Sequence record: MZ868638.1
Source: Escherichia phage vB_EcoM-pEK20
Length of the DNA stretch: 64,000 nt
Strand: one strand, 5' to 3'
Shown here one piece after another: positions 3,093 to 62,626 of the stretch. Below the pieces are notes generated by a model. The model did not search any database. It was not told the DNA's origin and saw nothing but the letters and a program-made list of their open reading frames with translations. The position numbers and the translations under genes are program-made. Positions within the stretch are counted from its first letter, which is position 1; each line of letters opens with the position of its first letter.

Positions 3093-3114
3093 GGAGGACT
3101 CCGGTCCTCCTTTT
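3093..3114 (+). terminator. rho-independent terminator
   Basis: stem ggaggac 3093-3099 / gtcctcc 3104-3110, loop tccg, then tttt. Confidence 0.7.
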
Positions 3115-5225: not shown

Positions 5226-5255
5226 GTTTACAACAAGATAGGGCTATGTTATAGT
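5226..5255 (+). promoter_or_regulatory. early promoter in stem-loop
   Basis: -35 gtttac 5226-5231, -10 tatagt 5250-5255; inverted repeat gatagg 5237-5242 / cctatc 5259-5264. Confidence 0.6.
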
Positions 5256-5283
5256 AGTCCTATCAAATTAAACGGAGACCACA

Positions 5284-5523
5284 ATGATTTATTACGAAAG
5301 TGTTGGAACCAAAGTGGTTGGTAAAACCATTACTCGTGAAAAGTTTGCAAAGATATTCGATATGCGTTATAAAAAATCTGAACACAAAGGCATCCGATTC
5401 GAAGATGCACACTGTACAATTTGCCCTTATAATGAAGACATAAATGGTACAATCGTTCCATTAGTAGAGGCTTCACACGATGACCTCTGGGATGAATATA
5501 ATATCGCATGTCGTGAAATTTAA
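5284..5523 (+). CDS. hypothetical protein
   Basis: ATG ORF with SD ggagacc upstream. Confidence 0.45.
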   Translation: MIYYESVGTKVVGKTITREKFAKIFDMRYKKSEHKGIRFEDAHCTICPYNEDINGTIVPLVEASHDDLWDEYNIACREI

Positions 5524-6516: not shown

Positions 6517-6546
6517 GTTTACAACAAGATAGGACTATGTTATAGT
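6517..6546 (+). promoter_or_regulatory. early promoter in stem-loop
   Basis: -35 gtttac 6517-6522, -10 tatagt 6541-6546; inverted repeat ataggact/agtcctat. Confidence 0.6.
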
Positions 6547-6574
6547 AGTCCTATTAAAACATGAGGAGAATATT

Positions 6575-6880
6575 ATGAAATTAGGCGAAACCAACCGAAT
6601 TGGTCTTTTAACAATATTTGCATCACCTTTTTACGCAGCTCTTTCTGTTGCAGTATTACAAAAGGCTTACGATATGGATGGTGTTCCTGGTTGTATATTC
6701 TTATCACCATTTTTATTATTCGTCGGGGCTTTGTTATTATATGCCACGACTAGTTTTGACCATAATGTCTGGGTTAATTATAAATGTAAATTGTCTGAAG
6801 AAGAACACGCAGAAGCTCGTAAAAAAGCTATTGAATCTACCAATCTAGAAAATTTCATTAAAGAATGTCGAGGAAAATAA
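6575..6880 (+). CDS. small membrane protein with C-terminal ENFIKECR motif
   Basis: ATG ORF, SD gaggag; two hydrophobic segments. Confidence 0.5.
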   Translation: MKLGETNRIGLLTIFASPFYAALSVAVLQKAYDMDGVPGCIFLSPFLLFVGALLLYATTSFDHNVWVNYKCKLSEEEHAEARKKAIESTNLENFIKECRGK

Positions 6881-8292: not shown

Positions 8293-8740
8293 GAAAAATA
8301 AAGTGAAAGAACTATCAGCCGGTATTATTTTCCTTACCGAAAATAAAGAATTATTCATGGGTCGTGTAACTGGTTCTCGTCCTAAAGGTGCATTAGCTCA
8401 TCGGTGGGATATTCCTAAAGGCCGTGTCGAACCTGGCGAATCTCCTATTGAAGCCGCTATTCGTGAATGCGAAGAAGAAACTGGGTTTACACAATATGAT
8501 CCTGCCTTCCTGAAAGACCTAGGTGAACATCATTACTCAGACAATAAGAATATTCATCTGTTCCTATATACCATCCCTGTAGAGCACGAGCAATTCAGAA
8601 ACAGTGTTTGCAATTCCTATCATACATTCCCAGACGGACGTCAGATTCCTGAATTTGATGCATTCGCTTTAATTAAACCTTCTCAATGGGAATATGTAAT
8701 GGGCAAATCATTATATAAGGTGCTCACTACCCTCCTATAA
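8282..8740 (+). CDS. nudE: Nudix hydrolase (T4 NudE/e.1-like)
   Basis: Nudix box GRVEPGESPIEAAIRECEEETG; position immediately upstream of lysozyme as in T4. Confidence 0.75.
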   Translation: MMSKKNKVKELSAGIIFLTENKELFMGRVTGSRPKGALAHRWDIPKGRVEPGESPIEAAIRECEEETGFTQYDPAFLKDLGEHHYSDNKNIHLFLYTIPVEHEQFRNSVCNSYHTFPDGRQIPEFDAFALIKPSQWEYVMGKSLYKVLTTLL

Positions 8741-8774
8741 GTAATAAATACCTCCTATAAACGTGGGAGGTATT

Positions 8775-9263
8775 ATGAATATATTTGAAATGCTTCGTAA
8801 TGACGAAGGTCTTAGACTGACTTTATACAAAGACACTGAAGGCTTTTGGACGATTGGCATAGGCCATTTAGTAACAAAGAACCCGTCTTTAGCCGTAGCT
8901 AAAGCTGAACTTGACAGAATGATCGGACGTAAATGCAACGGTACAATTACCCTTGATGAGGCTGAAAAGTTATTTAATGAAGACGTTGATAAAGCTGTTC
9001 GCGGAATCTTGGGTAATGCTAAACTTAAACCGGTATATGATTCTTTAGATGCAGTTCGTCGATGTGCATTGGTCAATATGGTCTTCCAAATGGGTGTAGC
9101 AGGCGTCGCTGGTTTTACTAATTCTCTTCGTATGCTTCAACAGAAACGTTGGGACGAAGCGGCAGTAAATCTAGCCCAATCTAAATGGTATCGTCAGACA
9201 CCTAATCGCGCGAAACGCGTAATCTCAACATTTAAAACAGGAACTTGGAAAGCGTATATATGA
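8775..9263 (+). CDS. e: endolysin, T4 lysozyme
   Basis: MNIFEMLR...GHLLTK...[27 protein letters not shown] closely matches T4 gpe; SD gggagg. Confidence 0.95.
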
Positions 9264-9542: not shown

Positions 9543-9572
9543 GTTTACTTCCTCCAAGGGTTTTGATACTAT
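9543..9572 (+). promoter_or_regulatory. early promoter upstream of denV
   Basis: -35 gtttac 9543-9548, -10 tactat 9567-9572. Confidence 0.55.
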
Positions 9573-9599
9573 ACATTCATCAACTACTTGGAGGAAATT

Positions 9600-10013
9600 A
9601 TGACTCGTATCAATTTAACACTTGTTTCTGAACTGGCCGACCAACATCTTATGGCTGAGTATCGTGAATTACCACGCGTATTTGGTGCAGTCCGTAAACA
9701 TGTTCAAAACGGTAAACGTGTAAAGGATTTTAAAATCTCTCCAACATTTATCTTAGGCACAGGTCACGTAACATTCTTTTACGACAAACTCGAATTTTTA
9801 CGTTTACGCCAAATCGAGCTAATCGCTGAATGCTTGAAACGTGGTTTCAAAATCAAGGACACGACTGTCCAGGATATTTCCGACATCCCTGCCGAATTTC
9901 GTAATAATTATGTCCCGTCCGAAGCGTCCATTGCGATAAGTCAAGCACGCTTAGATGAAAAAATTGCTCAACGTCCGACTTGGTACAAATACTATGGTAA
10001 ATCAATTTACTAA
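9600..10013 (+). CDS. denV: endonuclease V, pyrimidine-dimer DNA glycosylase
   Basis: [28 protein letters not shown]... matches T4 DenV. Confidence 0.95.
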
Positions 10014-10019
10014 GGAAAA

Positions 10020-10136
10020 ATGAAAATGTATCAAGAATTTATCATTGAAGCAGAGGCCAAAGGTCCTAAAGTAGATGTTGACGATATTGGATATGATTTT
10101 AACAACTTCGGAATTATTTCTGGCGGTAAAGCTTAA
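10020..10136 (+). CDS. mini internal-protein-like ORF (38 aa) with capsid-targeting leader MKMYQEFIIE
   Basis: SD aagga then ATG 10020; not in ORF track because <60 aa. Confidence 0.35.
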   Translation: MKMYQEFIIEAEAKGPKVDVDDIGYDFNNFGIISGGKA

Positions 10137-10139
10137 ACG

Positions 10140-10169
10140 GTTTACGCTTAAGTATTAATATGGTATAAT
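10140..10169 (+). promoter_or_regulatory. early promoter
   Basis: -35 gtttac 10140-10145, extended -10 tggtataat, tataat 10164-10169. Confidence 0.65.
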
Positions 10170-10199
10170 TGCTCTATCAAAACAAACAAGGAAACAAAA

Positions 10200-10514
10200 A
10201 TGAAAACCTATAAAGAATTTATTGCAGAATCCGCCAACCAACGCGTTGAAGGTGGTTATATTTGGATTGAACAAGTTGAGCCACCGAGCCGCACTTCTAC
10301 AGGTAAATGGAAAATTACTGTTGATGGTCCTGGTGGTAAACGTAGGACTCTTAAAGAAATTAATGGGTACTATGAAGAAGCTCTTTCGGATGCAGGAACT
10401 TACATGATGCAAATCATGATTAAAAACCCTGAAAACCGTTTTGCAGCTAAAGTCTTCCGCCGTATTGGTAATAAACTTTATGATGCATATTCTAAAAACT
10501 TCCCTAAAGAATAA
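10200..10514 (+). CDS. internal protein (leader MKTYKEFIAE)
   Basis: T4 IP leader consensus; ~100 aa basic protein. Confidence 0.6.
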   Translation: MKTYKEFIAESANQRVEGGYIWIEQVEPPSRTSTGKWKITVDGPGGKRRTLKEINGYYEEALSDAGTYMMQIMIKNPENRFAAKVFRRIGNKLYDAYSKNFPKE

Positions 10515-10540
10515 CATAAATTAAAACAATAGGAAAAAAA

Positions 10541-12610: not shown

Positions 12611-12845
12611 AGACATCAAAGGCTACAAGCCGCATACCGATGATAAAATCGGTAAAGTGAACGCTATTAAAGATGCCGAAGTTCGTTTAGGACTTATTCT
12701 AGACGCCCTGGCAGAAGAAGCATTATCAGCAAATACTCCTGAAGCTCTGACGGCTTTGTCCCAATTGAACTGTGCTAAAGAACGCCTAAAGGAAGCTAGT
12801 ATGTGGGCTTGTCGTGCGGTATTTCAACCAGAGGAAAAATACTAA
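12600..12845 (+). CDS. hypothetical protein
   Basis: ATG at M57 of listed ORF 12432; SD gagg; upstream part overlaps the previous gene in another frame. Confidence 0.4.
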
Positions 12846-13144
12846 TGGCTCAAATCCTATCAGGCTTTGGAACTCATTATGAAGCATCTCGACGCATAAC
12901 TGAAAGCAATCCTTTTGGCCTTGTTCCGAAGCACAAGAAAATTCAAAGCCTTGATGACTTTGAGAATCGCCTATGGGCCCTCTTTAATGAGTACAAGGCA
13001 TATCTGAAAGAAGACGCTGACGATTGTCTTGAAGAAGATGAGATTGCGTATTACGAACAACGCCTTGAACAGCTCAAGAACTTCCACCAGGTTCGTGACG
13101 AAGTATCTAAAGCAGTTAAAAAGTTAATTCCTTTCAAAGAGTAG
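12845..13144 (+). CDS. hypothetical protein
   Basis: ATG overlapping upstream stop (TAATGG). Confidence 0.45.
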
Positions 13145-13172
13145 TTTACTTCTCCTCTAGTTGTGTTACTAT
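13144..13172 (+). promoter_or_regulatory. early promoter in stem-loop, upstream of regB
   Basis: -35 gtttac 13144-13149, -10 tactat 13167-13172; inverted repeat tctcctctagttg / caactagaggaga. Confidence 0.65.
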
Positions 13173-13200
13173 AGACCTGTCAACTAGAGGAGAAATCAAA

Positions 13201-13659
13201 ATGACTATCAATTCAGACGTTTTTATCCGCCGCAATAAACTCCGTCGAATCTTTGAAACGGAGTTCCGCAAAATAAATGCCAGTATAAAAGATGCTGCAA
13301 AGTCTCTTGGACTACCGGGCTTTCATATCAAGTATTCTCAACATCTCTTAGATCGTGCCATCCAGAGAGAAATAGATGAGAATTACGTTTTTGAATTATT
13401 TCATAAAGTAAAAAATCATGTTAAAGAAGTTGCAGAATTTTTATCAATGCCGGCACGTCCAGATGTTGATGAAGATTTTGTCGAAGGTGTCGAATATCGC
13501 CCAGGCCGTTTAGAAATAACTGATGGAAATCTTTGGTTAGGACTTACAGTTTGTCGCGAAAATCCAGCATTCAAAATGAAGACTCTTCAATGCAGAATGG
13601 CTATTATTAACAATAAACGACTACCAGGAAAAGCTTCTAAAGCAGTGATTAAAATCTAG
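13201..13659 (+). CDS. regB: RegB site-specific endoribonuclease
   Basis: MTINSDVFIRRNKLRR...YSQHLLDRAIQREIDE...LQCRMAIINNKRLPGKASKAVIK matches T4 RegB. Confidence 0.9.
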   Translation: MTINSDVFIRRNKLRRIFETEFRKINASIKDAAKSLGLPGFHIKYSQHLLDRAIQREIDENYVFELFHKVKNHVKEVAEFLSMPARPDVDEDFVEGVEYRPGRLEITDGNLWLGLTVCRENPAFKMKTLQCRMAIINNKRLPGKASKAVIKI

Positions 13660-16734: not shown

Positions 16735-16762
16735 AGCCCCTTCCTTATGGTTGGGGCTTTTT
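16735..16762 (+). terminator. rho-independent terminator
   Basis: agcccc 16735-16740 / ggggct 16753-16758 then T-run. Confidence 0.7.
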
Positions 16763-16773
16763 GGCATTTAGCA

Positions 16774-16802
16774 GTTTACTTCTCCTCAGGTTGTGTTATA
16801 GT
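16774..16802 (+). promoter_or_regulatory. early promoter
   Basis: -35 gtttac 16774-16779, -10 tatagt 16797-16802. Confidence 0.6.
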
Positions 16803-16829
16803 AGTCCTTACTTACTAGAGGAGAACGTT

Positions 16830-17009
16830 ATGACACGTAAAGAAAAAATTTCTAAGTTAATGTTTTTGATTGAAGAGTACGCTAATGCGGTATCTGATTG
16901 GGAAAATGCTCATGGTTGCGAAGATGGAGACATCGACATTAACAGAGCTATGAAAAAGATGGCTGAAGCCCACACCGAATTGCAAATGTATGTTAACGAG
17001 ATTATGTGA
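16830..17009 (+). CDS. hypothetical small protein
   Basis: ATG after SD agaggag; upstream part of listed ORF 16761 is promoter. Confidence 0.35.
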   Translation: MTRKEKISKLMFLIEEYANAVSDWENAHGCEDGDIDINRAMKKMAEAHTELQMYVNEIM

Positions 17010-17016
17010 GGATATT

Positions 17017-17226
17017 ATGCTTTACGATTATACTGGAAAATCTGAAGACGGTGTACTTGAACTTTTACCTGAAAGCGCTGAAGATGACGATATGACGACG
17101 GTGATGTTTTGTAAAAATGGCCCTGGGGATAAGGGATGGATTTATCTTCGTCAAGAAAATGACTTAATTGTTTTGGACCCTAAACAAGTTGAAGAACTTT
17201 ATCAACATTTAAAACACAATCGGTAG
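17017..17226 (+). CDS. hypothetical small acidic protein
   Basis: ATG at M10 of listed ORF, SD gagga. Confidence 0.4.
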   Translation: MLYDYTGKSEDGVLELLPESAEDDDMTTVMFCKNGPGDKGWIYLRQENDLIVLDPKQVEELYQHLKHNR

Positions 17227-17255
17227 TTTACGTCTTGGTAGGACTATGATATAGT
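17226..17255 (+). promoter_or_regulatory. early promoter in stem-loop
   Basis: -35 gtttac 17226-17231, -10 tatagt 17250-17255; inverted repeat ttggtaggact / taatcctaccaa. Confidence 0.6.
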
Positions 17256-17390
17256 AATCCTACCAAAACAAATGGAGAACAAAATGAAACTTTTGCTTAT
17301 CGCTTATGTTGTAGTACAATACAATTATCCGATGTTTACTTATAACATGGTAAACGGCATAGTGAATCTTATTGAAACGAGTATGGTAAA

Positions 17391-21398: not shown

Positions 21399-21427
21399 GT
21401 TTACAAGGTCTATAGTTATGTTATTAT
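21399..21427 (+). promoter_or_regulatory. early promoter in stem-loop
   Basis: -35 gtttac 21399-21404, -10 tattat 21422-21427; inverted repeat ggtctatag / tatagacc. Confidence 0.6.
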
Positions 21428-21454
21428 AGACCTATCAACTACTGGAGGTAAAAC

Positions 21455-21982
21455 ATGAACGCTAAAGATATTTTCAACCTGGTAAATTATAACGACGGTA
21501 AATTTAAATCTGAAGCACAAAGCAAGTTCTTTAATGACGTTGCTTATGGTAACGAGATTACCGTGGACGGAGGTCAGATTTTCAAATCTCGCTGGAATTG
21601 GATTGCTATCATCGATTCAGTTGGAATTGTGGAAGTCTACAAAAACACTAACAAAAAACGTACATTATTCTGGTCTCGTGAAACTAACGAGCAGTACAAA
21701 AAGGATAAAGCATCTCGTTTATCCAAAGTAACCCAGGAAGATATCGAGTTTATCAAGAAAGATATCGAGATGTACGAAAATTTAATCGCTGAAGACCAGG
21801 CAGTACTCGACAAGTTTGACGAAATTAAAGCTTCTCGTGAAATCCCTGACTTCATGAAAGAAACAGTAAATGAACGATACGCTCTCACTTCAGAACGTAT
21901 TGCAAACTATACAAAACAGAAAGCAGAACGTATTAGTACTCTTCGGAAATTTGAAGAACGTTTAAAGACGGTTCACGCATAA
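21455..21982 (+). CDS. hypothetical protein
   Basis: ATG ORF, SD ggaggt. Confidence 0.5.
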   Translation: MNAKDIFNLVNYNDGKFKSEAQSKFFNDVAYGNEITVDGGQIFKSRWNWIAIIDSVGIVEVYKNTNKKRTLFWSRETNEQYKKDKASRLSKVTQEDIEFIKKDIEMYENLIAEDQAVLDKFDEIKASREIPDFMKETVNERYALTSERIANYTKQKAERISTLRKFEERLKTVHA

Positions 21983-26493: not shown

Positions 26494-26664
26494 ATGCAAG
26501 TTAAATTATTGTACCGTTTATTAAAAAATGGCAAGCATGATTGGTATTTGCTTATTAAAACCGATCCGAATTTTTTCTCTGGACAACCATTTACAGTTCG
26601 TCCTACTAAACGTCAGCTTCGCAAAGCTAAACGTTCTCATCGTAACTTTTATAGAGAATATTGA
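26494..26664 (+). CDS. small basic protein, RPTKRQ-motif family (copy 1)
   Basis: C-terminus VRPTKRQLRKAKRSHRNFY. Confidence 0.4.
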   Translation: MQVKLLYRLLKNGKHDWYLLIKTDPNFFSGQPFTVRPTKRQLRKAKRSHRNFYREY

Positions 26665-27088: not shown

Positions 27089-27268
27089 ATGAAAACTGCA
27101 TTATTTTTTGGCGAAAGAACAAACGGTCAAAAATCTTGGAAATTTGTTATAATTGGTGCTCCAAACAATCCGAACATGAGGACTTCAATCATTTCGGTAA
27201 CACGTCCTACTAAAAGAATGATTCGCCAATACAAACGTTTTCATCGAGACTTTTATAACGTTTACTAA
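27089..27268 (+). CDS. small basic protein, RPTKRQ-motif family (copy 2)
   Basis: 59-aa ORF not in track; C-terminus TRPTKRMIRQYKRFHRDFY. Confidence 0.35.
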   Translation: MKTALFFGERTNGQKSWKFVIIGAPNNPNMRTSIISVTRPTKRMIRQYKRFHRDFYNVY

Positions 27269-31106: not shown

Positions 31107-31135
31107 GTTTACATCCTCAATAGATGTGTTAAGAT
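31107..31135 (+). promoter_or_regulatory. early promoter
   Basis: -35 gtttac 31107-31112, -10 taagat 31130-31135. Confidence 0.5.
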
Positions 31136-31163
31136 TAAACCATCTACTATAGAGGAAAATAAA

Positions 31164-31346
31164 ATGACAATTGAAGATAAAGAAATTAAGGTCGACCAGT
31201 ACTATTCTGTCAACGGTAGTGCAGTACAGATAACCAGAGTTTCAAGCCTGGATGTTTGGTACCGTTCGATCAAATATCCAGAAATTGGTGAAATGCTTTG
31301 TGACCGTGGTATCTTCTGTTCAATTGCGAAGGAAATTAAGCCATGA
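31164..31346 (+). CDS. hypothetical small protein
   Basis: ATG at M55 of listed ORF, SD agagga. Confidence 0.35.
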   Translation: MTIEDKEIKVDQYYSVNGSAVQITRVSSLDVWYRSIKYPEIGEMLCDRGIFCSIAKEIKP

Positions 31347-32231: not shown

Positions 32232-32294
32232 TAATGTACAACGATAGGAAGACGTGTTATTATCTTCCTATCGTCTTAAAATGAGGAAAATATC

Positions 32295-32534
32295 ATGGAA
32301 CAAGAATTAGACGTTATTACATCGAAAAAACGTCTTGAAGTCGTAGTGAATGGCTCAACTATTAAGTTTGTATATGACACTTTAACTGATGCTATTACCG
32401 TTAGTTGTGGTGGAAAGGCTTTTAGTCTAGATTCTACTGAAAACAAATACCCGTTCTATAAAGGTATCTTTGATATGGGTGTTGATATCAGTGTTCGTCA
32501 AGCAAACTATTTACATTATCTTATCACGGAATAA
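32295..32534 (+). CDS. hypothetical protein
   Basis: ATG ORF, SD gagga; upstream inverted repeat gacgataggaaga/tcttcctatcgtc. Confidence 0.45.
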   Translation: MEQELDVITSKKRLEVVVNGSTIKFVYDTLTDAITVSCGGKAFSLDSTENKYPFYKGIFDMGVDISVRQANYLHYLITE

Positions 32535-33432: not shown

Positions 33433-33477
33433 TGCTTTAAGATAGGTCTCTAAATATTATGATATAATAGACCTATG
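33433..33477 (+). promoter_or_regulatory. promoter-containing stem-loop upstream of gene 55 (MotA-box-like tgcttta)
   Basis: tgcttta 33433-33439; inverted repeat ataggtct 33442-33449 / agacctat 33470-33477 enclosing tattat and tataat. Confidence 0.4.
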
Positions 33478-33497
33478 AATTGAGCTAAGAGGTACTT

Positions 33498-34055
33498 ATG
33501 ACCGAACAAAAACCTAAAAATAACTATGTGAATAATAAAGAGCTTCTCGCCGCTATAATCGAGTGGAAAAAGGAGCTCTTAAATAATAAAGACCCAAACA
33601 AAATTATTCGTCAGAATGATACCATCGGTTTAGCAATTATGCTTATCGCCGAAGGCCTGTCCAAACGTTTCAACTTTTCAGGATATACCCAGTCTTGGAA
33701 GCAGGAGATGATTGCAGATGGGATTGAAGCCTCTATTAAGGGACTTCATAATTTCGACGAAACTAAGTACAATAACCCACATGCATACATAACTCGAGCT
33801 TGTTTTAATGCTTTTGTCCAACGTATCAAAAAAGAACGTAAGGAAGTTGCAAAGAAATATAGTTACTTCGTTCATAACGTCTACGACAGTCATGACGATG
33901 ATATGGTAGCGTTGGTAGATGAAACGTTTATTCAAGACATCTACGATAAAATGACGCATTATGAAGAATCCGCTTATAAAGCTCCTGGGGCTGAAAAGAA
34001 GGAAGTTGTTAGCGATTCGCCTAGTTTGGATTTTTTATATGAGGATGACAATTGA
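33498..34055 (+). CDS. 55: late-transcription sigma factor gp55
   Basis: near-identical to T4 gp55 (YVNNKELL...[39 protein letters not shown]). Confidence 0.95.
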
Positions 34056-36316: not shown

Positions 36317-37163
36317 CTATGAAACTCAAATTTATAAAATTCTTAAAACCTCCTTCCCTTCGTGGGAAGGACTTGATGAGTATTTAAACTTTATAAAAAC
36401 TAATTCCACTAATAAAGTAAAAGGACTGACTCAGGTTCACCATATACTACCAAAATCTATTTTTCCAGATTTTAAAACATGTAAATGGAACTTGTGTCAT
36501 TTAAGTCATTATAACCATTTTATTGCACATAGCATTTTGGCAAAAACTGGCAACCACAAGATGATTAACGCGCTTCAAAGAATGTATACCGGGCGATTTA
36601 ATTTAAATTGTACAACGCATGAACTAAATAATATAGCCGAGGCGTATTCTTTAGAATTCGAAAATGTTTGTAAAGTTAATTCTATAAAAATGACATTATA
36701 CTATTCCAATCAGGATAATAGAATTAAGATTAGTCAAGCTTTAAAAGCATGGTTTAAAAATCCGGAAAATTTAAAGAAACATAGAATTATGACAAGTTCA
36801 AAGGAATTTAAAGAAACCGTCTCTATTATGACCCAAAAGTGGTTTAGTGACCCTATTAATAAACAAAAACATTTGGATGCTTGTCGTAAAATATCTAAAA
36901 CAACCGAATATAGAGAATCATTATCGGCTGGAGTTTCACGCAGTTGGAAAAATCCTAAAGTTAGAGACACTCATTTGAAATCTAGAAGAAAAGGATATCA
37001 TTGGGAAAATTTTGATATGCTTTACGTTGAATGGGTTAAAATGAACAAACCTAAATATGTAACTTTTTCTAAAAATTTAGTCAATTTAGGATATCCTATA
37101 CAAAGTTCTTTACAGGCTTTAGTTTCTGAATTCATGAGGAAAAATTTAAGTGAAAACATTTAA
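36303..37163 (+). CDS. HNH homing endonuclease with NUMOD-like repeats
   Basis: HNH core VHHILPKS...NLCHLSHYNHFIAH; three KxWxNPxxxKxH-type repeats; ATG at M6 of listed TTG ORF. Confidence 0.6.
   Translation: MTKTDYETQIYKILKTSFPSWEGLDEYLNFIKTNSTNKVKGLTQVHHILPKSIFPDFKTCKWNLCHLSHYNHFIAHSILAKTGNHKMINALQRMYTGRFNLNCTTHELNNIAEAYSLEFENVCKVNSIKMTLYYSNQDNRIKISQALKAWFKNPENLKKHRIMTSSKEFKETVSIMTQKWFSDPINKQKHLDACRKISKTTEYRESLSAGVSRSWKNPKVRDTHLKSRRKGYHWENFDMLYVEWVKMNKPKYVTFSKNLVNLGYPIQSSLQALVSEFMRKNLSENI
36303..37163 (+). mobile_element. free-standing homing endonuclease gene between genes 47 and 46
   Basis: HNH endonuclease ORF in a slot that holds only small ORFs in T4. Confidence 0.5.
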
Positions 37164-38838
37164 ATTAAATCGTGTTCGTTATAAAAATATAATGTCTGTT
37201 GGGCAAAATTTTATCGATATCCAATTAGATAAAGTCCAAAAGACCTTAATCACAGGTAAAAATGGTGGTGGTAAATCTACGATGTTAGAAGCCATTACTT
37301 TCGGACTTTTCGGTAAACCATTTCGTGATGTTAAGAAAGGGCAAATCATTAATAGCACGAACAAGAAAGAGCTCTTAGTTGAGCTTTGGATGGAATTCGA
37401 TGGTAAAAAATACTTCATTAAACGTGGCCAAAAACCCAATATTTTCGAAATCTCCGTTGACGGTGTTCGTCTTGATGAATCTGCCAGCAGTCGTGACTTC
37501 CAAGAAGAATTTGAACGCAGCATCGGAATGTCATACGCGTCTTTTAAACAAATCGTTGTGCTTGGGACGGCAGGGTATACCCCTTTCATGGCTCTTAGCA
37601 CCCCTGCTCGCAGAAAACTTGTCGAAGACCTTTTAGAAGTCGGCACACTCGCTGAAATGGATAAAATCAATAAGTCTCAAGTTCGAGAACTTAATTCCCA
37701 GGGACAAGTTCTCGATGCCAAGAAAGATGGTATTATCCAACAAATTAAGATTTATAACGAGAATATCGAACGTCAAAAGAAATTATCTGGTGATAATGTA
37801 GCGCGTCTACAGAATATGTATGACGACCTAGCCAAAGAAGCTCGTTCATTAAAAGCAGAAATCGAAGAAGCTAATGAGCGACTACTTAATATCGTTCTTG
37901 ATGAAGACCCTACTGAGGCATTCAACAAGATAGGACAAGAAGCATTCTTGATTAAATCTAAAATCGACTCATATAACAAAGTTATTAAGATGTATCATGA
38001 CGGTGGCACATGTCCTACTTGTGCATCACAGTTGCACCAGGGTGATCCTATTGTCTCTAAGATTACCGATAAGCTTCACGAATGTAATCACTCATTCGAA
38101 CAACTTACATGTCACAGAGATAATCTGAGTGTCTTAGTGGACGAATATAGAGCTAATGTTAAGACTAAACAGGACCTTGCATCTGATATTCGTACCAAGA
38201 AACAAGCAATGATTGCCACTATTGATAAAGCTAAGAAAGTTAAAGCTGCAATAGAACAAGCCTCAGCGGAATTTATCGACCATGCCGATGAGATAGCTTT
38301 GCTTCAAAAAGAACTTGATAAAATCATTAAAACAAAATCGGATATCGTTCTTGAAAAATACCATCGTGGTATTATCACAGATATGTTAAAAGATTCTGGT
38401 ATTAAAGGTGCTATCATTAAAAAATATGTGCCTCTGTTCAACAAACAGATTAACCATTATCTTAAAATCATGGAAGCTGATTACGTGTTTTCTATTGACG
38501 AAGAATTCAATGAATCTATAAAATCACGTGGTCGTGAAGAGTTCAGTTATGCTTCATTTAGTCAAGGTGAAAAGGCACGTATCGATATCGCATTGTTGTT
38601 TACATGGCGAGATATTGCTGAAAAGGTCTCTGGTGTTAGAATCAATACATTAATTATGGACGAAGTCATGGATTCCGCGACTGATTCTGAAGGTATTAAA
38701 GCTATTTCAACAATTCTTAACTCTCTAACCGATGCAAACGTGTTTATAATTAGTCACAGAGACCATGACCCACAAGCTTATGGACAACATCTTCAAATGA
38801 GCAAAGTTGGACGATTTACTGTAATGACTGTTTCATAA
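37150..38838 (+). CDS. 46: recombination endonuclease subunit gp46 (Rad50/SbcC-like)
   Basis: Walker A GKNGGGKST, coiled-coil middle, CPTC zinc hook, signature FSQGEKARI; GTG start overlapping HEG end. Confidence 0.95.
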   Translation: MKTFKLNRVRYKNIMSVGQNFIDIQLDKVQKTLITGKNGGGKSTMLEAITFGLFGKPFRDVKKGQIINSTNKKELLVELWMEFDGKKYFIKRGQKPNIFEISVDGVRLDESASSRDFQEEFERSIGMSYASFKQIVVLGTAGYTPFMALSTPARRKLVEDLLEVGTLAEMDKINKSQVRELNSQGQVLDAKKDGIIQQIKIYNENIERQKKLSGDNVARLQNMYDDLAKEARSLKAEIEEANERLLNIVLDEDPTEAFNKIGQEAFLIKSKIDSYNKVIKMYHDGGTCPTCASQLHQGDPIVSKITDKLHECNHSFEQLTCHRDNLSVLVDEYRANVKTKQDLASDIRTKKQAMIATIDKAKKVKAAIEQASAEFIDHADEIALLQKELDKIIKTKSDIVLEKYHRGIITDMLKDSGIKGAIIKKYVPLFNKQINHYLKIMEADYVFSIDEEFNESIKSRGREEFSYASFSQGEKARIDIALLFTWRDIAEKVSGVRINTLIMDEVMDSATDSEGIKAISTILNSLTDANVFIISHRDHDPQAYGQHLQMSKVGRFTVMTVS

Positions 38839-38839
38839 A

Positions 38840-38864
38840 CGCTTTAACACGATGTGGTTATAAT
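38840..38864 (+). promoter_or_regulatory. middle promoter (MotA-box type)
   Basis: cGCTTTA 38840-38846, 12-nt spacer, tataat 38859-38864; inverted repeat gatgtggt/accacatc. Confidence 0.55.
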
Positions 38865-38892
38865 GACCACATCAAATTAAATGGAGAACAAC

Positions 38893-39081
38893 ATGGAGTA
38901 TTCAACTGGCCAACATCTTCTCGTTGTCCCTGAAATTAAAAAATATGTTTTGACCAATACGTTTTCAGGTGAAGAACATATTGTTACTGAACAAATGCTC
39001 AAATCTGCTTTTAAAGATGAGTATAATAAAATAATGTCTAATCGCAATTCCGCATGGACAGTTACCGACTTCTACGAATAA
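38893..39081 (+). CDS. 45.2: small protein 45.2-like
   Basis: ATG at M5 of listed ORF; position upstream of rpbA/45. Confidence 0.5.
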   Translation: MEYSTGQHLLVVPEIKKYVLTNTFSGEEHIVTEQMLKSAFKDEYNKIMSNRNSAWTVTDFYE

Positions 39082-54656: not shown

Positions 54657-54662
54657 TAAAAA

Positions 54663-54681
54663 GGAGACTTCGGTCTCCTTT
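54663..54681 (+). terminator. UUCG-tetraloop hairpin terminator
   Basis: ggagac-ttcg-gtctcc then ttt. Confidence 0.55.
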
Positions 54682-54685: not shown

Positions 54686-54715
54686 GTTTACATCTTCCTC
54701 TAGGCATGATATGAT
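54686..54715 (+). promoter_or_regulatory. early promoter
   Basis: -35 gtttac 54686-54691, -10 tatgat 54710-54715. Confidence 0.5.
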
Positions 54716-54744
54716 GTACTTACACAAACCAAGAGGAAAACATT

Positions 54745-55119
54745 ATGAATATGTCTCAAGCAATTTTTACTGCAATCACCGAAAACACAACTGTTGAAGT
54801 AGTTTCTCCGCTGGCAACCTACGTTATTCTTGCTCCTAAAACTATTGTATCTCGTATGGAAAACATGGGCAAACGTATCGTACAAATTGTTGGAGCCGGA
54901 AATCAAAAACTTGATTATCTGCGAACCATCAAAGCTTATGAACATTTCCAACTCGAAAAAGGTTCTCCTATCCAGGTAGAACTCGTAAATGGTGATATTG
55001 TTCGAGCAATGTTCCATCATTTCTATGCATTGAATGACCCATCTAAAGCGGTTCGTTTAATTGCATACGACGCAAACCAAAACGAAATCAACGCAGATGT
55101 ATCTAAATTACGTTTTTAA
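54745..55119 (+). CDS. hypothetical protein
   Basis: ATG ORF, SD agagga. Confidence 0.5.
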   Translation: MNMSQAIFTAITENTTVEVVSPLATYVILAPKTIVSRMENMGKRIVQIVGAGNQKLDYLRTIKAYEHFQLEKGSPIQVELVNGDIVRAMFHHFYALNDPSKAVRLIAYDANQNEINADVSKLRF

Positions 55120-55148
55120 GTTTACTTCTCCAGTAGTTGTGTTATTAT
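55120..55148 (+). promoter_or_regulatory. early promoter in stem-loop
   Basis: -35 gtttac 55120-55125, -10 tattat 55143-55148; inverted repeat ctccagtagttg / caactactggag. Confidence 0.65.
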
Positions 55149-55174
55149 AGACCTATCAACTACTGGAGAACAAA

Positions 55175-55492
55175 ATGAAAACCATCGATTGTAAAGCAGA
55201 ATTTAAGATTTTTTATCACGGTTCAAGTAGTTCAGCTAACATCGAAAACATGCTTTGTCCTCCTGAGGAAACAGGAGTTCTGTCTGAAACCGGACGTAAG
55301 AAAAACTTGGATCGTGTATTCTTTACTGAAGATATCGGTTTAGCAAAGATTTATGCAGGACGAGCAGCACGCTCTTATGGAGGTGAACCACGTCTCTATC
55401 GAGTAATTTCTCCGGTAGACGTAGTTCAAATGAATAATACTAAAGGTGCTACAGTTTATCACGCTGAATGGGCATTTTGCGAGGAAATATGA
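55175..55492 (+). CDS. hypothetical protein
   Basis: ATG ORF. Confidence 0.5.
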   Translation: MKTIDCKAEFKIFYHGSSSSANIENMLCPPEETGVLSETGRKKNLDRVFFTEDIGLAKIYAGRAARSYGGEPRLYRVISPVDVVQMNNTKGATVYHAEWAFCEEI

Positions 55493-55681: not shown

Positions 55682-55894
55682 ATGTATTCAACTGTGTTTA
55701 AACCATCAACATACGAATTTGCATCAACTACACAATGGAAAGCTCTTATTCTGGAAGGATGGGAACTAATGATGGACTGTGAAGCATCTGAAAAGTTTCC
55801 ACACGGCAAAGTGGACTTCGTTAAATTTGCTGTACGTCCGACTAAACGACAGATTCGTCAAGAAAAACGCAAATTTCGCAAAAGTTTAAAATAA
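55682..55894 (+). CDS. small basic protein, RPTKRQ-motif family (copy 3)
   Basis: C-terminus VRPTKRQIRQEKRKFRKSLK. Confidence 0.4.
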   Translation: MYSTVFKPSTYEFASTTQWKALILEGWELMMDCEASEKFPHGKVDFVKFAVRPTKRQIRQEKRKFRKSLK

Positions 55895-56637: not shown

Positions 56638-56667
56638 GTTTACATTATAGATGGACTATAGTATAGT
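56638..56667 (+). promoter_or_regulatory. early promoter in stem-loop
   Basis: -35 gtttac 56638-56643, -10 tatagt 56662-56667; inverted repeat ggactat/atagtcc. Confidence 0.6.
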
Positions 56668-56696
56668 AGTCCTATCAAATCAACTAAGGAGTTAAA

Positions 56697-56990
56697 ATGA
56701 AAAAGTTATCATTGGCAGCAATCTTACTTGCAGTATCATGTGCACCAGCTCCAGTTACGGCAGGTTATGATAAAGACCTCTGTGAGTGGTCAATGACTGC
56801 AAATCAAGAAGATGTTGAACAACAAATCTTCTCTGATATCATGAACATCACTAAACGAGACCGTCCTAATATGGTTAATAAAGTTGTTGAACAACTTAAG
56901 TCTGGCGGTATCATGCAGTACAACTATGTTTTGTATTGTGACCCTAATTTCGATAACAAAGATATCGTAACCGAAATCACAGGTGAATAA
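56697..56990 (+). CDS. sp: periplasmic protein, spackle (Sp)-like
   Basis: signal peptide; 97 aa; GYDKDLCEWSMTA resembles my recollection of T4 Sp; lies between 41 and 61. Confidence 0.45.
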   Translation: MKKLSLAAILLAVSCAPAPVTAGYDKDLCEWSMTANQEDVEQQIFSDIMNITKRDRPNMVNKVVEQLKSGGIMQYNYVLYCDPNFDNKDIVTEITGE

Positions 56991-60477: not shown

Positions 60478-60486
60478 ATAATTTAA

Positions 60487-61828: not shown

Positions 61829-61989
61829 AAGAGAAATTGAAAGAGAAATTCTTACTAGAAATCAAGGAAAAAGACTTTGAGACATGGTATCGAATGGTGA
61901 AAGGGCTGACATTGCTTTTTAAAGCATCGTTATTCATGTTAGAACAACCTGGTCCTGATGGGCCTTTAGTAGGAAAGCTTAAAAAGTAG
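61825..61989 (+). CDS. hypothetical small protein (54 aa)
   Basis: ATGA overlap with upstream stop; not in track. Confidence 0.3.
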   Translation: MKEKLKEKFLLEIKEKDFETWYRMVKGLTLLFKASLFMLEQPGPDGPLVGKLKK

Positions 61990-62017
61990 TTTACATTCCC
62001 TCCTCTCGTGTTATGAT
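61989..62017 (+). promoter_or_regulatory. early promoter
   Basis: -35 gtttac 61989-61994, -10 tatgat 62012-62017. Confidence 0.5.
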
Positions 62018-62044
62018 AGGCTTATCTTTAAATGGAGGTCTATC

Positions 62045-62626
62045 ATGACATGTCAATCTGAACTTCAAGAACGCGAATACCTAACAAATCTGATTGATAG
62101 CAAATTCACCCGCCAAGAACAAAACATTCTCTGGGCCTGCACCGATTCTAAGGAAGACCCGGATTTCCACTATGAATTAGACCATCTTGTTCGTAAGCAT
62201 ATGACTTCTACAGTGCCAGTAGAACTCTACCGTGGTGTAACTCCAGAAGAAGTAGAACGTCTTTCCCTTCTTTCTGTGGGATGCCATTGGTCTCCTGGAC
62301 GAGTAACATCGTTCACAACTGATTTCAGTACAGCTCGTCAATTCTCCGGGAGATGGGAATATCAGACGTACACTATTCTTAGTCTCAGGAATGCTCCATT
62401 CATTTTTGATTACTACCAAAACATGGTTAACATTGTACTTGCCGGAAAGAACCCTAAGCATGTTATGGAAGAAACGCGTGTTGACGTCCTAGATATGATT
62501 GAATCTGAACAAGAATACATGGTCTCAGGTATCTCTAGATTTGAGATTGTGGAAATTGAAGAGTTAGAGTATGACCCTTTGTCTCGAGTATACAAAATCA
62601 TTCACTTAAAGATGTTGAATTTTTAG
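62045..62626 (+). CDS. ADP-ribosyltransferase, ModA/ModB-like
   Basis: R-S-E ART motifs: YRG, SFTTDF, EQEYMVSG; paralog of next gene; position downstream of soc as for T4 modA/modB. Confidence 0.55.
   Translation: MTCQSELQEREYLTNLIDSKFTRQEQNILWACTDSKEDPDFHYELDHLVRKHMTSTVPVELYRGVTPEEVERLSLLSVGCHWSPGRVTSFTTDFSTARQFSGRWEYQTYTILSLRNAPFIFDYYQNMVNIVLAGKNPKHVMEETRVDVLDMIESEQEYMVSGISRFEIVEIEELEYDPLSRVYKIIHLKMLNF

What the first reader, a model, noticed from the sequence alone, without database searches (positions are those of the whole stretch)
13144..13193. Early promoters are embedded in inverted repeats (PeSL-like stem-loops)
Most early promoters here (for example 5226, 6517, 13144, 17226, 21399, 24036, 55120, 56638) have the GTTTAC / extended -10 pair flanked or overlapped by 8-13-bp inverted repeats such as ctcctctagttg...caactagaggag. 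This resembles the promoter-early stem-loop cassettes proposed for T4-type phages as mobile regulatory modules, as I recall.
Basis: partly seen in the sequence, partly recalled or inferred. Interest (0 to 1): 0.5.

Follow-up and report, generated by a model that had tools for sequence, protein, structure and literature searches.

The report
Early-promoter cassettes with built-in hairpins
In this T4-like phage, many early promoters sit in ~60-bp repeated cassettes with a built-in inverted repeat (a known "PeSL-like" design), and in the flagged copy upstream of the RNase gene regB one arm is the ribosome-binding site, so probably only RNA started at this promoter can be translated.

Summary
The window comes from a Mosigvirus-type T4-like coliphage. 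Position 13144 is the regB early promoter. A perfect 14-bp inverted repeat (13150-13163 and 13181-13194) puts its 5' arm in the -35/-10 spacer and its 3' arm on the regB Shine-Dalgarno sequence. The predicted start site (~13179) lies in the loop.

About 27-30 such cassettes occur, all on the + strand. Roughly half (14 of 27) hold a significant hairpin, so "most" is slightly generous. Each spacer pairs with its own downstream sequence far better than with the downstream sequence of other promoters (z about -6). The same holds in phage T2.

Two geometries recur:
- **Class A:** the 3' arm ends at the start site.
- **Class B:** the 3' arm is the ribosome-binding site.

The regB hairpin is kept in 14 of 16 lineages, with different, compensating stem sequences.

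The PeSL comparison is supported. The cassettes are the largest repeat families in the window and coincide with ORF-plus-cassette indels between close relatives.

My best reading of 13144 is fold-back inhibition. Read-through RNA masks the regB ribosome-binding site, and promoter-proximal RNA does not. This is inferred and was not tested. The accessible PeSL papers do not describe this geometry.

The parts
13110..13141 (+). A/T-rich region upstream of -35 (UP-element-like). It is also the 3' end of the upstream vs.3-like ORF (12845-13144).
   Evidence: Sequence read. The ORF was mapped from the PNJ-6 annotation.
13142..13144 (+). TAG stop codon of the upstream ORF. It overlaps the G of GTTTAC and lies 5 nt before the 5' arm.
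13144..13150 (+). -35 element GTTTACT (hexamer TTTACT at 13145-13150), of T4 early-promoter type.
   Evidence: nhmmer cassette hit 13133-13203, E = 1.8e-15.
13150..13163 (+). 5' arm TTCTCCTCTAGTTG. It lies in the -35/-10 spacer and contains the anti-SD sequence CTCC. It lies upstream of the predicted start site, so it is absent from promoter-proximal RNA.
13164..13172 (+). Extended -10 element TGtTACTAT (hexamer TACTAT at 13167-13172, 16-nt spacer). It lies in the hairpin loop.
13179..13179 (+). Predicted transcription start (a G, 7 nt after the -10; +/-1 nt). It lies in the loop, 2 nt before the 3' arm.
   Evidence: Inferred from standard sigma-70 geometry; not measured. 25 of 27 cassettes place the ATG 19-25 nt after this point.
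13181..13194 (+). 3' arm CAACTAGAGGAGAA. It contains the regB Shine-Dalgarno sequence GGAG (13189-13192), which in T4 is also the site where RegB cleaves its own mRNA.
   Evidence: RegB self-cleavage in the SD is described in PMC3014915.
13201..13659 (+). regB, the sequence-specific endoribonuclease (152 aa).
   Evidence: Annotations of near-identical phages. RegB relatives were found.
55120..55177 (+). Paralogous class B cassette. Arms are 55126-55139 and 55157-55170 (CTCCAGTAGTTG / CAACTACTGGAG). It differs from the 13144 copy by a compensating TC>AG / GA>CT change.
   Evidence: ddG 15.6 kcal/mol.
9543..9602 (+). Class B cassette upstream of denV. Arms are 9549-9558 and 9587-9596 (TTCCTCCAAG / CTTGGAGGAA).
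   Evidence: ddG 11.0. The CLB_P2 denV cassette has a different stem in the same place.
16774..16832 (+). Weaker class B cassette. Arms are 16780-16787 and 16818-16825 (TTCTCCTC / GAGGAGAA).
   Evidence: ddG 5.5.
31107..31166 (+). Class B cassette with an interrupted stem. Arms are 31114-31123 and 31147-31156.
   Evidence: ddG 8.3.
54686..54747 (+). Weak class B cassette. Arms are 54695-54704 and 54729-54738. A canonical terminator lies directly upstream.
   Evidence: ddG 4.3.
5226..5286 (+). Class A cassette. Arms are 5237-5246 and 5255-5264 (GATAGGGCTA / TAGTCCTATC, one G-T pair). The 3' arm overlaps the -10 and ends at the predicted start site.
6517..6577 (+). Class A cassette. Arms are 6529-6537 and 6546-6554 (ATAGGACTA / TAGTCCTAT).
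17226..17286 (+). Class A cassette. Arms are 17235-17243 and 17258-17266 (TTGGTAGGA / TCCTACCAA).
21399..21457 (+). Class A cassette. Arms are 21406-21414 and 21425-21433 (AGGTCTATA / TATAGACCT).
32234..32297 (+). Arms are 32241-32252 and 32263-32274 (ACGATAGGAAGA / TCTTCCTATCGT).
38835..38895 (+). Class A cassette with a degenerate -35. Arms are 38852-38858 and 38866-38872 (ATGTGGT / ACCACAT).
56638..56699 (+). Class A cassette. Core arms are 56653-56658 and 56667-56672 (GGACTA / TAGTCC), longer if a bulge is allowed.
61989..62047 (+). Third geometry. The -10 region (TGTTATGATAG) pairs with the start-codon region (CTATCATGACA).
   Evidence: ddG 11.1. The regB cassette of phage P896 has the same geometry.

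Best explanation
Positions 13144-13203 are a fixed-format regB immediate-early promoter cassette: -35, a 16-nt spacer, an extended -10, the start site, a 22-nt leader with the SD, and the ATG. It belongs to the T-even-type PeSL-like cassette family.

**What the sequence shows.** The 14-bp inverted repeat is built so that the 5' arm (the anti-SD sequence CTCC plus 8 more bases) lies inside the promoter spacer, upstream of the start site. The 3' arm is the regB Shine-Dalgarno region.

**Proposed mechanism (inferred).**
- RNA started at this promoter begins in the loop and lacks the 5' arm. Its SD is therefore open. It is translated, and RegB can later cleave it at GGAG, which is the known autoregulation.
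- RNA reading through from upstream promoters carries both arms. It folds into a hairpin of about -22 kcal/mol that buries the SD. regB is then not translated from those transcripts, or only weakly, and the GGAG is also hidden from RegB.
- The net effect is that RegB synthesis is tied to the few minutes when its own early promoter fires.

**Status of the steps.** The repeat, its geometry, its conservation with compensating changes, and the computed masking of the SD are shown. The start-site position, the existence of read-through RNA, and the effect on translation are inferred.

**The other geometry.** Class A has its 3' arm on the -10/discriminator and ends at the start site. It is also present only in read-through RNA but does not touch the SD. 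Its role is open: attenuator, 3'-end stabiliser or insulator.
For: **Geometry.** establish the positions of the arms, the promoter elements and the SD.

**Strength of the fold.** The fold energy is -23.2 kcal/mol, z = -3.6, with 0 of 200 shuffles as stable.

**SD accessibility.** The cost of opening the SD-AUG region is 17.4 kcal/mol in the read-through context and 4.9 in the proximal transcript, so ddG = 12.4. That is larger than the value for the lysozyme e hairpin in this same window (10.1), whose T4 counterpart is experimentally validated (PMC3014915). 6 of 27 cassette genes have ddG >= 5, against 5 of 95 other genes (Fisher p = 0.014). Two of those five 'other' genes are e and gene 55.

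**Conservation of the regB cassette.**
- 14 of 16 distinct regB cassettes, spanning at least six named genera (Mosigvirus, Tequatrovirus, Gelderlandvirus, Dhakavirus, Gaprivervirus, Marfavirus) plus unassigned metagenome lineages, fold at -14.5 to -22.4 kcal/mol.
- 10 of them pair the spacer with the SD using different inner stem sequences.
- 2 more nest an SD helix around a GC hairpin.
- 1 pairs the -10 with the AUG.
- Own-arm pairing averages -17.1 kcal/mol, against -10.65 +/- 0.79 for swapped arms, z = -8.2.

**Covariation.** Across 19 class B cassettes, 11 of 14 pairs change on both sides. There are 50 doubly changed cells, against 17.8 +/- 3.2 in shuffles (0 of 500 shuffles reach the observed value). 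The covariation score is 0.48, against 0.04-0.11 for slid registers.

**Same bimodal placement in other phages.** In T2 and CLB_P2 the 3' arm also ends either at about -2 to +7 or at about +13 to +17 relative to the start site.

**Hint of RNA-level selection.** Non-Watson-Crick positions inside stems are G-U on the sense strand 13 times and A-C 5 times.

**Not a terminator by sequence.** No T run follows the hairpin.

**Biological rationale.** The literature says RegB production must be tightly limited and that its promoter is off after 2-3 min (PMC3014915). RegB needs single-stranded GGAG (PMC1702504).
Against: - No start site, read-through transcript or translation measurement is available for this phage, and I found none in the searchable literature.
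- Only about a quarter of the cassettes mask the SD. This mechanism therefore cannot explain the whole family.
- Two regB lineages (KpNIH6, L037) have only a class A hairpin and one (L023) has none. SD masking is not obligatory for regB.
- The sense-versus-antisense folding energies within the window are mixed.
- The 13-versus-5 wobble bias is only marginal (one-sided p about 0.05).
- The covariation alignment (A3) was built in the register of each sequence's own best helix, which inflates the pair counts.
- The upstream stop codon is 5 nt from the 5' arm. A terminating ribosome could open the outer stem, so the block may be leaky or act as a coupling device.
Confidence: 0.55

Rival explanations
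1. Canonical PeSL reading. The stem-loop is a transcription terminator or attenuator that stops RNA polymerase arriving from upstream, so that each cassette gene is transcriptionally insulated. The overlap with the SD would be incidental.
For: - Arbiol et al. showed that one RB49/phi1 PeSL stem-loop lowered lacZ expression as much as rrnB T1 (PMC2839356).
- The hairpins sit directly after upstream stop codons.
- Class A hairpins, and the two regB lineages with only class A hairpins, do not touch the SD.
Against: - None of the promoter-embedded hairpins on the + strand is followed by a T run.
- The terminator scan finds only the separate UUCG-loop, GC-rich hairpins with T runs at 3093 and 60485; a similar hairpin at about 54661 was seen by eye.
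- In class B the outer base pairs are always CTCC/GGAG at the SD, in at least 10 regB lineages with otherwise different stems. A pure terminator would not need that.
- The lacZ assay in the PeSL paper cannot separate termination from a translational or stability effect.
Confidence: 0.15
2. Translational coupling device. On read-through RNA the hairpin keeps the regB SD closed unless a ribosome finishing the upstream ORF (stop codon 13142-13144) melts the outer stem. regB would then be made in a fixed low ratio to the upstream protein rather than being silenced.
For: - The stop codon lies 5 nt from the 5' arm. A terminating ribosome's footprint (about 12-13 nt beyond the stop codon's first base; general knowledge) would cover 13150-13154. 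Those bases pair with G90-A94 of the SD region.
- Upstream stop codons lie 1-8 nt before the -35 in most cassettes.
Against: - Nine base pairs would remain closed, including G13189 of the SD.
- Some class B cassettes (16775, 54687) follow a terminator and an untranslated gap rather than a stop codon.
- No data bear on this directly.
Confidence: 0.12
3. Protection of polycistronic RNA from RegB. Pairing the internal GGAG hides it from RegB/S1, so that read-through transcripts carrying downstream genes (vs.1, vs and others) survive after RegB appears.
For: - RegB/S1 needs an 11-nt single-stranded GGAG-plus-A-rich site.
- T4 GGAG motifs in stable structures are resistant to cleavage (PMC1702504).
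- The SDs in these cassettes match the RegB consensus; GGAGAACAAAA at 55121 is one example.
Against: - This is not exclusive of the main explanation. It is a consequence of the same fold.
- It does not explain the third geometry, in which the AUG rather than the GGAG is paired.
Confidence: 0.08
4. DNA-level element. The palindrome would be a binding site for a dimeric protein, a cruciform that modulates promoter activity, or a recombination signal for cassette shuffling.
For: - The PeSL authors speculate about a DNA-binding protein that targets the stem-loop (PMC2839356).
- Indel junctions fall inside cassettes.
Against: - Stem sequences differ completely between cassettes and between regB lineages, while pairing is kept. 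That argues against a sequence-specific protein site.
- Loops of 8-30 nt are poor for cruciform extrusion.
- G-T positions outnumber A-C positions, and T2 regB folds at -22.4 on the sense strand against -12.2 on the antisense strand. Both favour an RNA of the sense strand.
- Homologous recombination needs only the ~40-60 nt of cassette identity, not a hairpin.
Confidence: 0.05
5. No function. The repeats would be by-products of cassette duplication and of sequence constraints within the promoter.
For: - Several cassettes share arms by descent: 5227, 6518 and 56639, and 13145 and 55121.
- 8 of 27 cassettes lack any hairpin.
Against: - Own-versus-swapped pairing tests give z about -6 in the window and in T2, and z = -8 for the regB orthologues.
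- Compensating double changes are seen between paralogues and between orthologues.
Confidence: 0.05

Closest known systems
PeSLs (promoter-early stem-loops) of T4-type phages: RB49/phi1 (Arbiol et al. 2010, PMC2839356); PST/T4 and nt-1/KVP40 (Comeau et al. 2014, PMC4122927); and the earlier T-even IP-locus promoter/stem-loop elements (Repoila et al. 1994, as cited in PMC2839356)
   Same: - A repeated intergenic cassette made of an upstream stop codon, an AT-rich region, a strong early promoter, a stem-loop, an SD and an ATG.
- It mostly precedes small ORFs of unknown function.
- It is associated with ORF-plus-cassette indels between close relatives.
- Class A (stem between -35 and -10, or overlapping the -10) matches the commonest RB49/phi1 positions.
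   Different: - The promoter is of the T4 early type (GTTTAC...TGnTAnnnT) rather than near-consensus TTGACA.
- The stems are AT-rich and varied rather than G-run/C-run stems.
- No T run follows them.
- For PST/T4 the published stem-loops lie just upstream of the promoter (AGNA-loop-TCNT, terminator-like), not inside it.
- Class B, with the 3' arm on the SD beyond the start site, is not among the five published positions.
- Neither paper mentions SD masking.
T4 translation-initiation-region hairpins of genes e, soc, 49 and I-TevI (reviewed in PMC3014915)
   Same: - The SD/AUG is buried in a helix in long upstream-initiated transcripts.
- A promoter sits so that its transcripts start inside the structure, lack the 5' strand and are translated.
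- The e example is present in this window at 8746-8773. It scores like the regB element in the same calculation.
   Different: - In those genes the internal promoter is a late promoter, and the effect is to delay expression until late.
- Here it is an immediate-early sigma-70-type promoter, the 5' strand is the promoter's own -35/-10 spacer, and the predicted effect is to restrict expression to the first minutes.
Fold-back inhibition of IS10/IS50-type transposase genes (protection from outside transcription). This comparison rests on my own knowledge and was not checked here.
   Same: - An inverted repeat whose 5' arm lies upstream of the gene's own start site and whose 3' arm covers the ribosome-binding site.
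- Only read-through transcripts fold, and those are untranslatable.
   Different: It is a transposon context with no cassette family. It is an analogy of mechanism only, not of ancestry.
Canonical T4-type intrinsic terminators (GC-rich stem, UUCG-type loop, T run)
   Same: They are intergenic hairpins that often contain GGAG/CTCC. Some lie directly upstream of early promoters in this window (about 54661, 60485, about 16743).
   Different: The promoter-embedded hairpins have long loops (8-30 nt) that contain the -10, have AT-rich stems, and have no T run.

Membership tests
PeSL (Arbiol 2010 / Comeau 2014) | A repeated motif containing a strong sigma-70-type early promoter (-35, about 17-nt spacer, -10) with an AT-rich upstream region. 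| tested here: met
   - 23 strong GTTTAC-N16/17-TAnnnT sites on the + strand and none on the - strand.
- 30 nhmmer cassette hits at E <= 1, 27 of them at E <= 0.01, all on the + strand.
- The cassettes form the largest direct-repeat families, D1-D7.
- The -35 is the T4 type, matching the TTTACW...TAYWAT form reported for PST/T4.
PeSL (Arbiol 2010 / Comeau 2014) | A stem-loop in one of the described positions: upstream AT-rich region, overlapping the -35, between -35 and -10, overlapping the -10, or between the -10 and the start site. | tested here: inconclusive
   - Met for the class A cassettes (2421, 5227, 6518, 17227, 21400, 32235, 38836, 56639) and for the spacer-internal hairpins at 23041 and 24037.
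- Not met literally for 13144, 55120, 9543 and the other class B copies. Their 5' arm is between -35 and -10, but their 3' arm lies beyond the start site, on the SD.
PeSL (Arbiol 2010 / Comeau 2014) | Intergenic position, bounded by the upstream stop codon and the downstream SD plus start codon. | tested here: met
   - The stop codon TAG at 13142-13144 abuts the -35, and the ATG is at 13201.
- 25 of 27 cassettes have the ATG 19-25 nt after the predicted start site.
PeSL (Arbiol 2010 / Comeau 2014) | The stem-loop acts as a transcription terminator or attenuator. | not testable with these tools
   Sequence proxy only. No T run follows any promoter-embedded hairpin on the + strand, unlike the canonical terminators in the same window.
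PeSL (Arbiol 2010 / Comeau 2014) | Association with ORF insertions, deletions and replacements between closely related phages (modular shuffling), preferentially next to small ORFs of unknown function. | tested here: met
   - The window has an extra ORF-plus-cassette module at 1985-2155 relative to PNJ-6, with 40 nt of shared cassette sequence at the junction.
- PNJ-6 has an extra cassette-plus-ORF inserted inside the 6518 cassette.
- 6 of 19 breakpoint ends lie within about 60 nt of a cassette, against about 1 expected (p = 4e-4).
- APCEc01 replaces the ORF upstream of regB, and homology resumes at 13140.
- The downstream genes are mostly PHROGs of unknown function.
PeSL (Arbiol 2010 / Comeau 2014) | Formation of excised mini-circles by recombination between neighbouring PeSLs. 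| not testable with these tools
   This needs PCR or sequencing of infected-cell or virion DNA.
T4-type promoter-gated TIR hairpin (e / soc / 49 / I-TevI class) | The SD and/or AUG is base-paired in transcripts that start upstream. | tested here: met
   This is a predicted result.
- All 14 pairs form in the minimum-free-energy and centroid structures.
- The opening cost is 17.4 kcal/mol, against 4.9 for the proximal RNA.
- The pairing is conserved with compensating changes.
T4-type promoter-gated TIR hairpin (e / soc / 49 / I-TevI class) | A promoter placed so that its transcripts start within the structure and lack the 5' strand. | tested here: met
   By geometry only. The 5' arm (13150-13163) is the promoter's own spacer, and the predicted start site at about 13179 is in the loop. 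The promoter class differs (early rather than late). The start site was not measured.
T4-type promoter-gated TIR hairpin (e / soc / 49 / I-TevI class) | A demonstrated difference in translation between long and short transcripts. | not testable with these tools
   This needs reporter fusions, toeprinting or ribosome profiling.
Rfam-curated RNA families | A match to any covariance model at its gathering score. | tested here: not met
   No matches in the whole window.

The most novel reading that the evidence does not exclude
T-even-type phages would carry a widespread, so far undescribed sub-class of early-promoter cassette. In it, the promoter's own -35/-10 spacer encodes an anti-Shine-Dalgarno arm, so the downstream gene is translatable only from RNA started at that promoter.

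This is fold-back inhibition built into a mobile promoter module. It would give immediate-early proteins such as RegB and DenV a translation window set by promoter shut-off, independent of continuing read-through or middle transcription. It would also make each shuffled cassette gene translationally, not just transcriptionally, insulated from its new neighbours.
Probability: 0.3. Interest if true: 0.6.

Novelty: new variant of a known kind. Interest (0 to 1): 0.42.

Why it matters
Promoter/stem-loop cassettes in T4-type phages are already in the literature, so the general observation is a new member of a known kind, now seen in a Mosigvirus.

The added value is in three results:
- The hairpins are under selection for pairing, in this phage and also in T2.
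- They fall into discrete geometries relative to the start site.
- One geometry places an anti-SD inside the promoter spacer.

If that geometry works as predicted, it explains how RegB, a nuclease whose dose is said to need tight control, is confined to the first minutes of infection. It extends the classic e/soc/49 [quoted passage not shown] logic from late genes to immediate-early genes. It also suggests that shuffled PeSL-type modules carry their own translational insulation.

It is directly testable with a handful of reporter constructs and 5'-end mapping.

Tried and rejected
- **MAFFT alignment of whole cassettes.** The stems came out in different registers, so it was unusable for pair counting. 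I replaced it with own-versus-swapped duplex tests and with a register-anchored mini-alignment. The mini-alignment carries a caveat: it is fitted to the structure.
- **Sense-versus-antisense folding energies.** These were meant to decide between RNA-level and DNA-level selection. They were mixed in the window and so inconclusive. A count of G-T versus A-C positions in stems gave 13 versus 5, which is only suggestive.
- **Per-base unpaired probability of the SD in a short proximal transcript.** A weak -3.7 kcal/mol alternative pairing distorted it. I replaced it with opening energies.
- **My first promoter list.** It missed cassettes with GTGTAC or ATGTAC at the -35 and included three probably intragenic sites (26416, 29669, 31810). 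It was corrected using nhmmer and the repeat finder.
- **The PNJ-6 start codon for the gene after cassette 17227.** The annotated start (17272) is probably wrong, and 17284 fits the cassette format. With 17284 the apparent SD masking at that site disappears.
- **Literature.** The T4 genome review (PMC150520) and Piesiniene et al. 2004 on regB in 35 phages could not be opened. Searches for T4 start-site maps, or for any description of SD masking at early promoters, found nothing relevant. One search failed on a term that was too short.
- **Rfam.** No matches.
- **Terminator reading for 13144.** I considered it and put it second, because no T run follows the hairpin.
Full report
**What the window is.** The window is 98-100% identical over the tested stretches to Mosigvirus-type T4-like coliphages such as PNJ-6, UGJNEcP1 and HX01. 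The + strand is the early-gene strand. Position 13144 lies between a vs.3-like ORF (12845-13144) and regB, the sequence-specific endoribonuclease (13201-13659).

- GTTTAC lies at 13144-13149.
- The extended -10, TGtTACTAT, lies at 13164-13172.
- A perfect 14-bp inverted repeat lies at 13150-13163 (TTCTCCTCTAGTTG) and 13181-13194 (CAACTAGAGGAGAA).
- As RNA, 13130-13215 folds at -23.2 kcal/mol (z = -3.6; 0 of 200 shuffles are as stable).
The repeats range from 14 perfect bp (13144, 55120) to a 6-bp hairpin inside the spacer (24036).

**How general it is.**
- A simple scan found 23 strong GTTTAC-N16/17-TAnnnT sites on the + strand and none on the - strand.
- A profile built from them found 30 hits at E <= 1 (27 at E <= 0.01), all on the + strand.
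- The repeat finder independently reported these cassettes as the largest direct-repeat families in the window, in register from the -35 to the ATG.
- In 25 of 27 tabulated cassettes the ATG lies 19-25 nt after the predicted start site, and 13 of them lie at exactly 22 nt. These are fixed-format modules.
- 14 of 27 fold with z <= -2, about five are borderline and eight have no hairpin. "About half to two-thirds" is more accurate than "most".

**More than chance.**
- A perfect repeat of 9 bp or more occurs in 6 of 23 promoter windows, against 33 of 1598 background windows.
- A control that keeps composition and shared motifs asks whether each spacer pairs with its own downstream sequence better than with those of other promoters. 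The result was -11.4 kcal/mol, against -7.9 +/- 0.6 (p < 5e-5).
- The same test on 50 kb of the phage T2 early region gave -10.65, against -7.18 +/- 0.58 (z = -5.9). The phenomenon is therefore not peculiar to this phage.

**Anatomy.** The 5' arm is always in the spacer, or reaches into the -10, so it lies upstream of the start site. The 3' arm ends in one of two places. This bimodality recurs in T2 and in the Dhakavirus CLB_P2.
- **Class A.** The 3' arm covers the end of the -10 and the discriminator and stops at about -2 to +7 relative to the start site. Sites: 2421, 5227, 6518, 17227, 21400, 32235, 38836, 56639.
- **Class B.** The 3' arm stops at +13 to +17 and is the Shine-Dalgarno sequence. 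The 5' arm begins right after the -35 with an anti-SD (CTCC or TCCTC). Sites: 9544 (denV), 10847, 13145 (regB), 16775, 31108, 54687, 55121.
- **A third, rarer geometry.** The -10 pairs with the start-codon region (61990, and regB of phage P896).
- In every case the hairpin can form only in RNA that starts upstream of the cassette.

**The regB element is conserved with compensating changes.** I collected 16 distinct regB cassettes from annotated phages, viral contigs and metagenome contigs.
- All are 59-63 nt from the -35 to the ATG.
- 14 fold at -14.5 to -22.4 kcal/mol.
- 10 pair the spacer with the SD using different inner stems. Examples: TAGTTG/CAACTA here, TTGACTG/CAGTTAA with two G-U pairs in T2/T4-type phages, TTTATG/CATAAA in L017, GTAG/CTAC in Dhakavirus, TTTTAGT/ACTAAAA in L034, and CTCTCTG/CAGAGAG in L038.
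- 2 nest an SD helix around a GC-rich hairpin, 2 have only a class A hairpin, 1 pairs the -10 with the AUG, and 1 has none.
- Own-arm pairing averages -17.1 kcal/mol, against -10.65 +/- 0.79 for swapped arms (z = -8.2).
- On a register-anchored alignment of 19 class B cassettes, 11 of 14 pairs change on both sides. There are 50 doubly changed cells, against 17.8 +/- 3.2 in shuffles (0 of 500). Slid registers collapse to a covariation score of 0.04-0.11, against 0.48. That alignment is fitted to the structure, which inflates the numbers. The swap test does not have this weakness.
- The paralogues 13145 and 55121 differ by TC>AG in one arm and GA>CT in the other.
- denV has class B stems of different sequence here and in CLB_P2.

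**Effect on the ribosome-binding site (computed).**
- Opening the SD-AUG region costs 17.4 kcal/mol in a read-through context and 4.9 kcal/mol in RNA starting at 13179 (ddG 12.4).
- 55175 gives 15.6, 62045 gives 11.1, denV gives 11.0 and 31164 gives 8.3.
- The same calculation picks out lysozyme gene e in this window (ddG 10.1; hairpin ATACCTCC/GGAGGTAT with a late-promoter-like TATAAATA on its 5' side). Its T4 counterpart is the textbook validated case of an SD masked in long transcripts and freed in transcripts from an internal promoter (PMC3014915).
- 6 of 27 cassette genes reach ddG >= 5, against 5 of 95 other genes (Fisher p = 0.014). SD masking is therefore a property of a subset of cassettes, not of the whole family.

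**Not ordinary terminators, and not a curated RNA family.**
- No promoter-embedded hairpin on the + strand is followed by a T run.
- The terminator scan finds only separate GC-rich hairpins with UUCG-type loops and T runs (3093, 60485). Similar ones are seen by eye at about 54661 and about 16743. Several of these lie just upstream of a cassette.
- Rfam gave no match.

**The PeSL comparison.** I read both PeSL papers.
- The promoter-plus-stem-loop-plus-SD format, the intergenic position, and the preference for small ORFs of unknown function all fit.
- The link to modular shuffling is directly visible. Relative to PNJ-6, the window carries an extra ORF-plus-cassette module (1985-2155) whose junction is 40 nt of shared cassette sequence. 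PNJ-6 carries an extra cassette-plus-ORF inserted inside the 6518 cassette. 6 of 19 homology-breakpoint ends fall within about 60 nt of a cassette, against about 1 expected (p = 4e-4).
- In APCEc01 and three other Mosigviruses the ORF upstream of regB is replaced, and homology resumes at 13140, the left edge of the cassette.
- Differences: these are the T-even type, which Arbiol et al. call analogues of the RB49/phi1 PeSLs. The stems are AT-rich. For PST/T4 the published stem-loops lie upstream of the promoter. Neither paper mentions a stem that closes on the SD or any translational role.

**Mechanism.**
- For 13144 I favour fold-back inhibition. RNA from the regB promoter starts in the loop and has a free SD. 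RNA reading in from upstream folds and hides it.
- This fits what is known of RegB. [quoted passage not shown] RegB/S1 needs single-stranded GGAG, so the fold would also hide this site on long RNAs (PMC1702504).
- The logic is that of T4 e/soc/49/I-TevI with an early promoter in place of a late one. From my own knowledge, it is also the logic by which IS10/IS50 are protected from outside transcription.
- What is shown: the structure, its placement, its conservation and the computed masking.
- What is inferred: the start site, the existence of read-through RNA and the translational effect.
- Rivals are attenuation or termination (the published PeSL role), translational coupling through the upstream stop codon 5 nt from the 5' arm, protection from RegB, a DNA-level role, and no function.
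- A weak excess of G-U over A-C positions in stems (13 against 5), and the much better sense-strand fold of the T2 element (-22.4 against -12.2), favour an RNA of the sense strand. Within the window the strand comparison is mixed.
- The role of class A hairpins remains open.

**Novelty and limits.**
- I did not find the spacer-encoded anti-SD geometry, or its conservation for regB and denV, described in the papers I could read. The T4 genome review and the 35-phage regB survey could not be opened, so prior description cannot be excluded.
- No experimental data were available for any step of the mechanism.

Noticed in passing
window 8737-8777: The lysozyme e start (8775) is preceded by an ATACCTCC/GGAGGTAT hairpin that buries the SD. 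Late-promoter-like TATAAATA/CTATAAAC motifs lie on its 5' side. This is the known T4 e-type arrangement, and I used it as a positive control (ddG 10.1 kcal/mol).
   Followed up: partly
window 33433-33500: Upstream of gene 55 (start 33498) there is an 8-bp hairpin, ATAGGTCT/AGACCTAT, with TATAAT in its loop but no GTTTAC -35. A TGCTTTA motif lies further upstream. It may be a middle-promoter counterpart of the cassettes ('PmSL'-like). The computed ddG of SD opening is 11.8 kcal/mol.
   Followed up: partly
window 3093-3110, ~16743-16764, ~54661-54676, 60485-60506: Canonical intrinsic terminators (GC-rich stems, UUCG-type loops, T run). Three of the four lie directly upstream of an early-promoter cassette. 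That is the arrangement published for PST/T4 PeSLs.
   Followed up: partly
window, e.g. 13173-13187, 21428-21442, 55151-55165; also T2 (L024) and CLB_P2 (L045): The initial transcribed region (A)GACCTATCAACTAC is conserved among many cassettes and across genera, whether or not a hairpin is present. Its function is unknown; candidates are a promoter discriminator, a leader element, or S1/RegB recognition.
   Followed up: no
window 683, 9260, 10026, 10200, 10541: A repeated 5' coding leader, ATGAAAACATATCAAGAATTTAT (families D10/D12), occurs at the starts of several small genes around the ipII-like locus. It looks like the shared N-terminal targeting leader of internal head proteins. The 10070-10520 segment is replaced in PNJ-6.
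   Followed up: no
window 26599-26653, 27203-27257, 55835-55889: Three copies (65-78% identical) of a 55-nt coding repeat, CGTCCTACTAAACGTCAGCTTCGCAAAGCTAAACG..., lie near the 3' ends of three small ORFs. This is a shared basic C-terminal peptide of unknown meaning.
   Followed up: no
window 36325-37150 and 28315/28316: About 0.8 kb at 36325-37150 is present here but replaced by about 0.2 kb in PNJ-6. PNJ-6 has about 1 kb extra at 28315, annotated as a homing endonuclease inside the anaerobic ribonucleotide reductase gene. These indels are not at cassettes.
   Followed up: no
window 17272 vs 17284: The start codon carried over from the PNJ-6 annotation (17272) is probably 12 nt too early. ATG 17284 has the GGAGAACAAAATG spacing typical of the cassettes.
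   Followed up: partly
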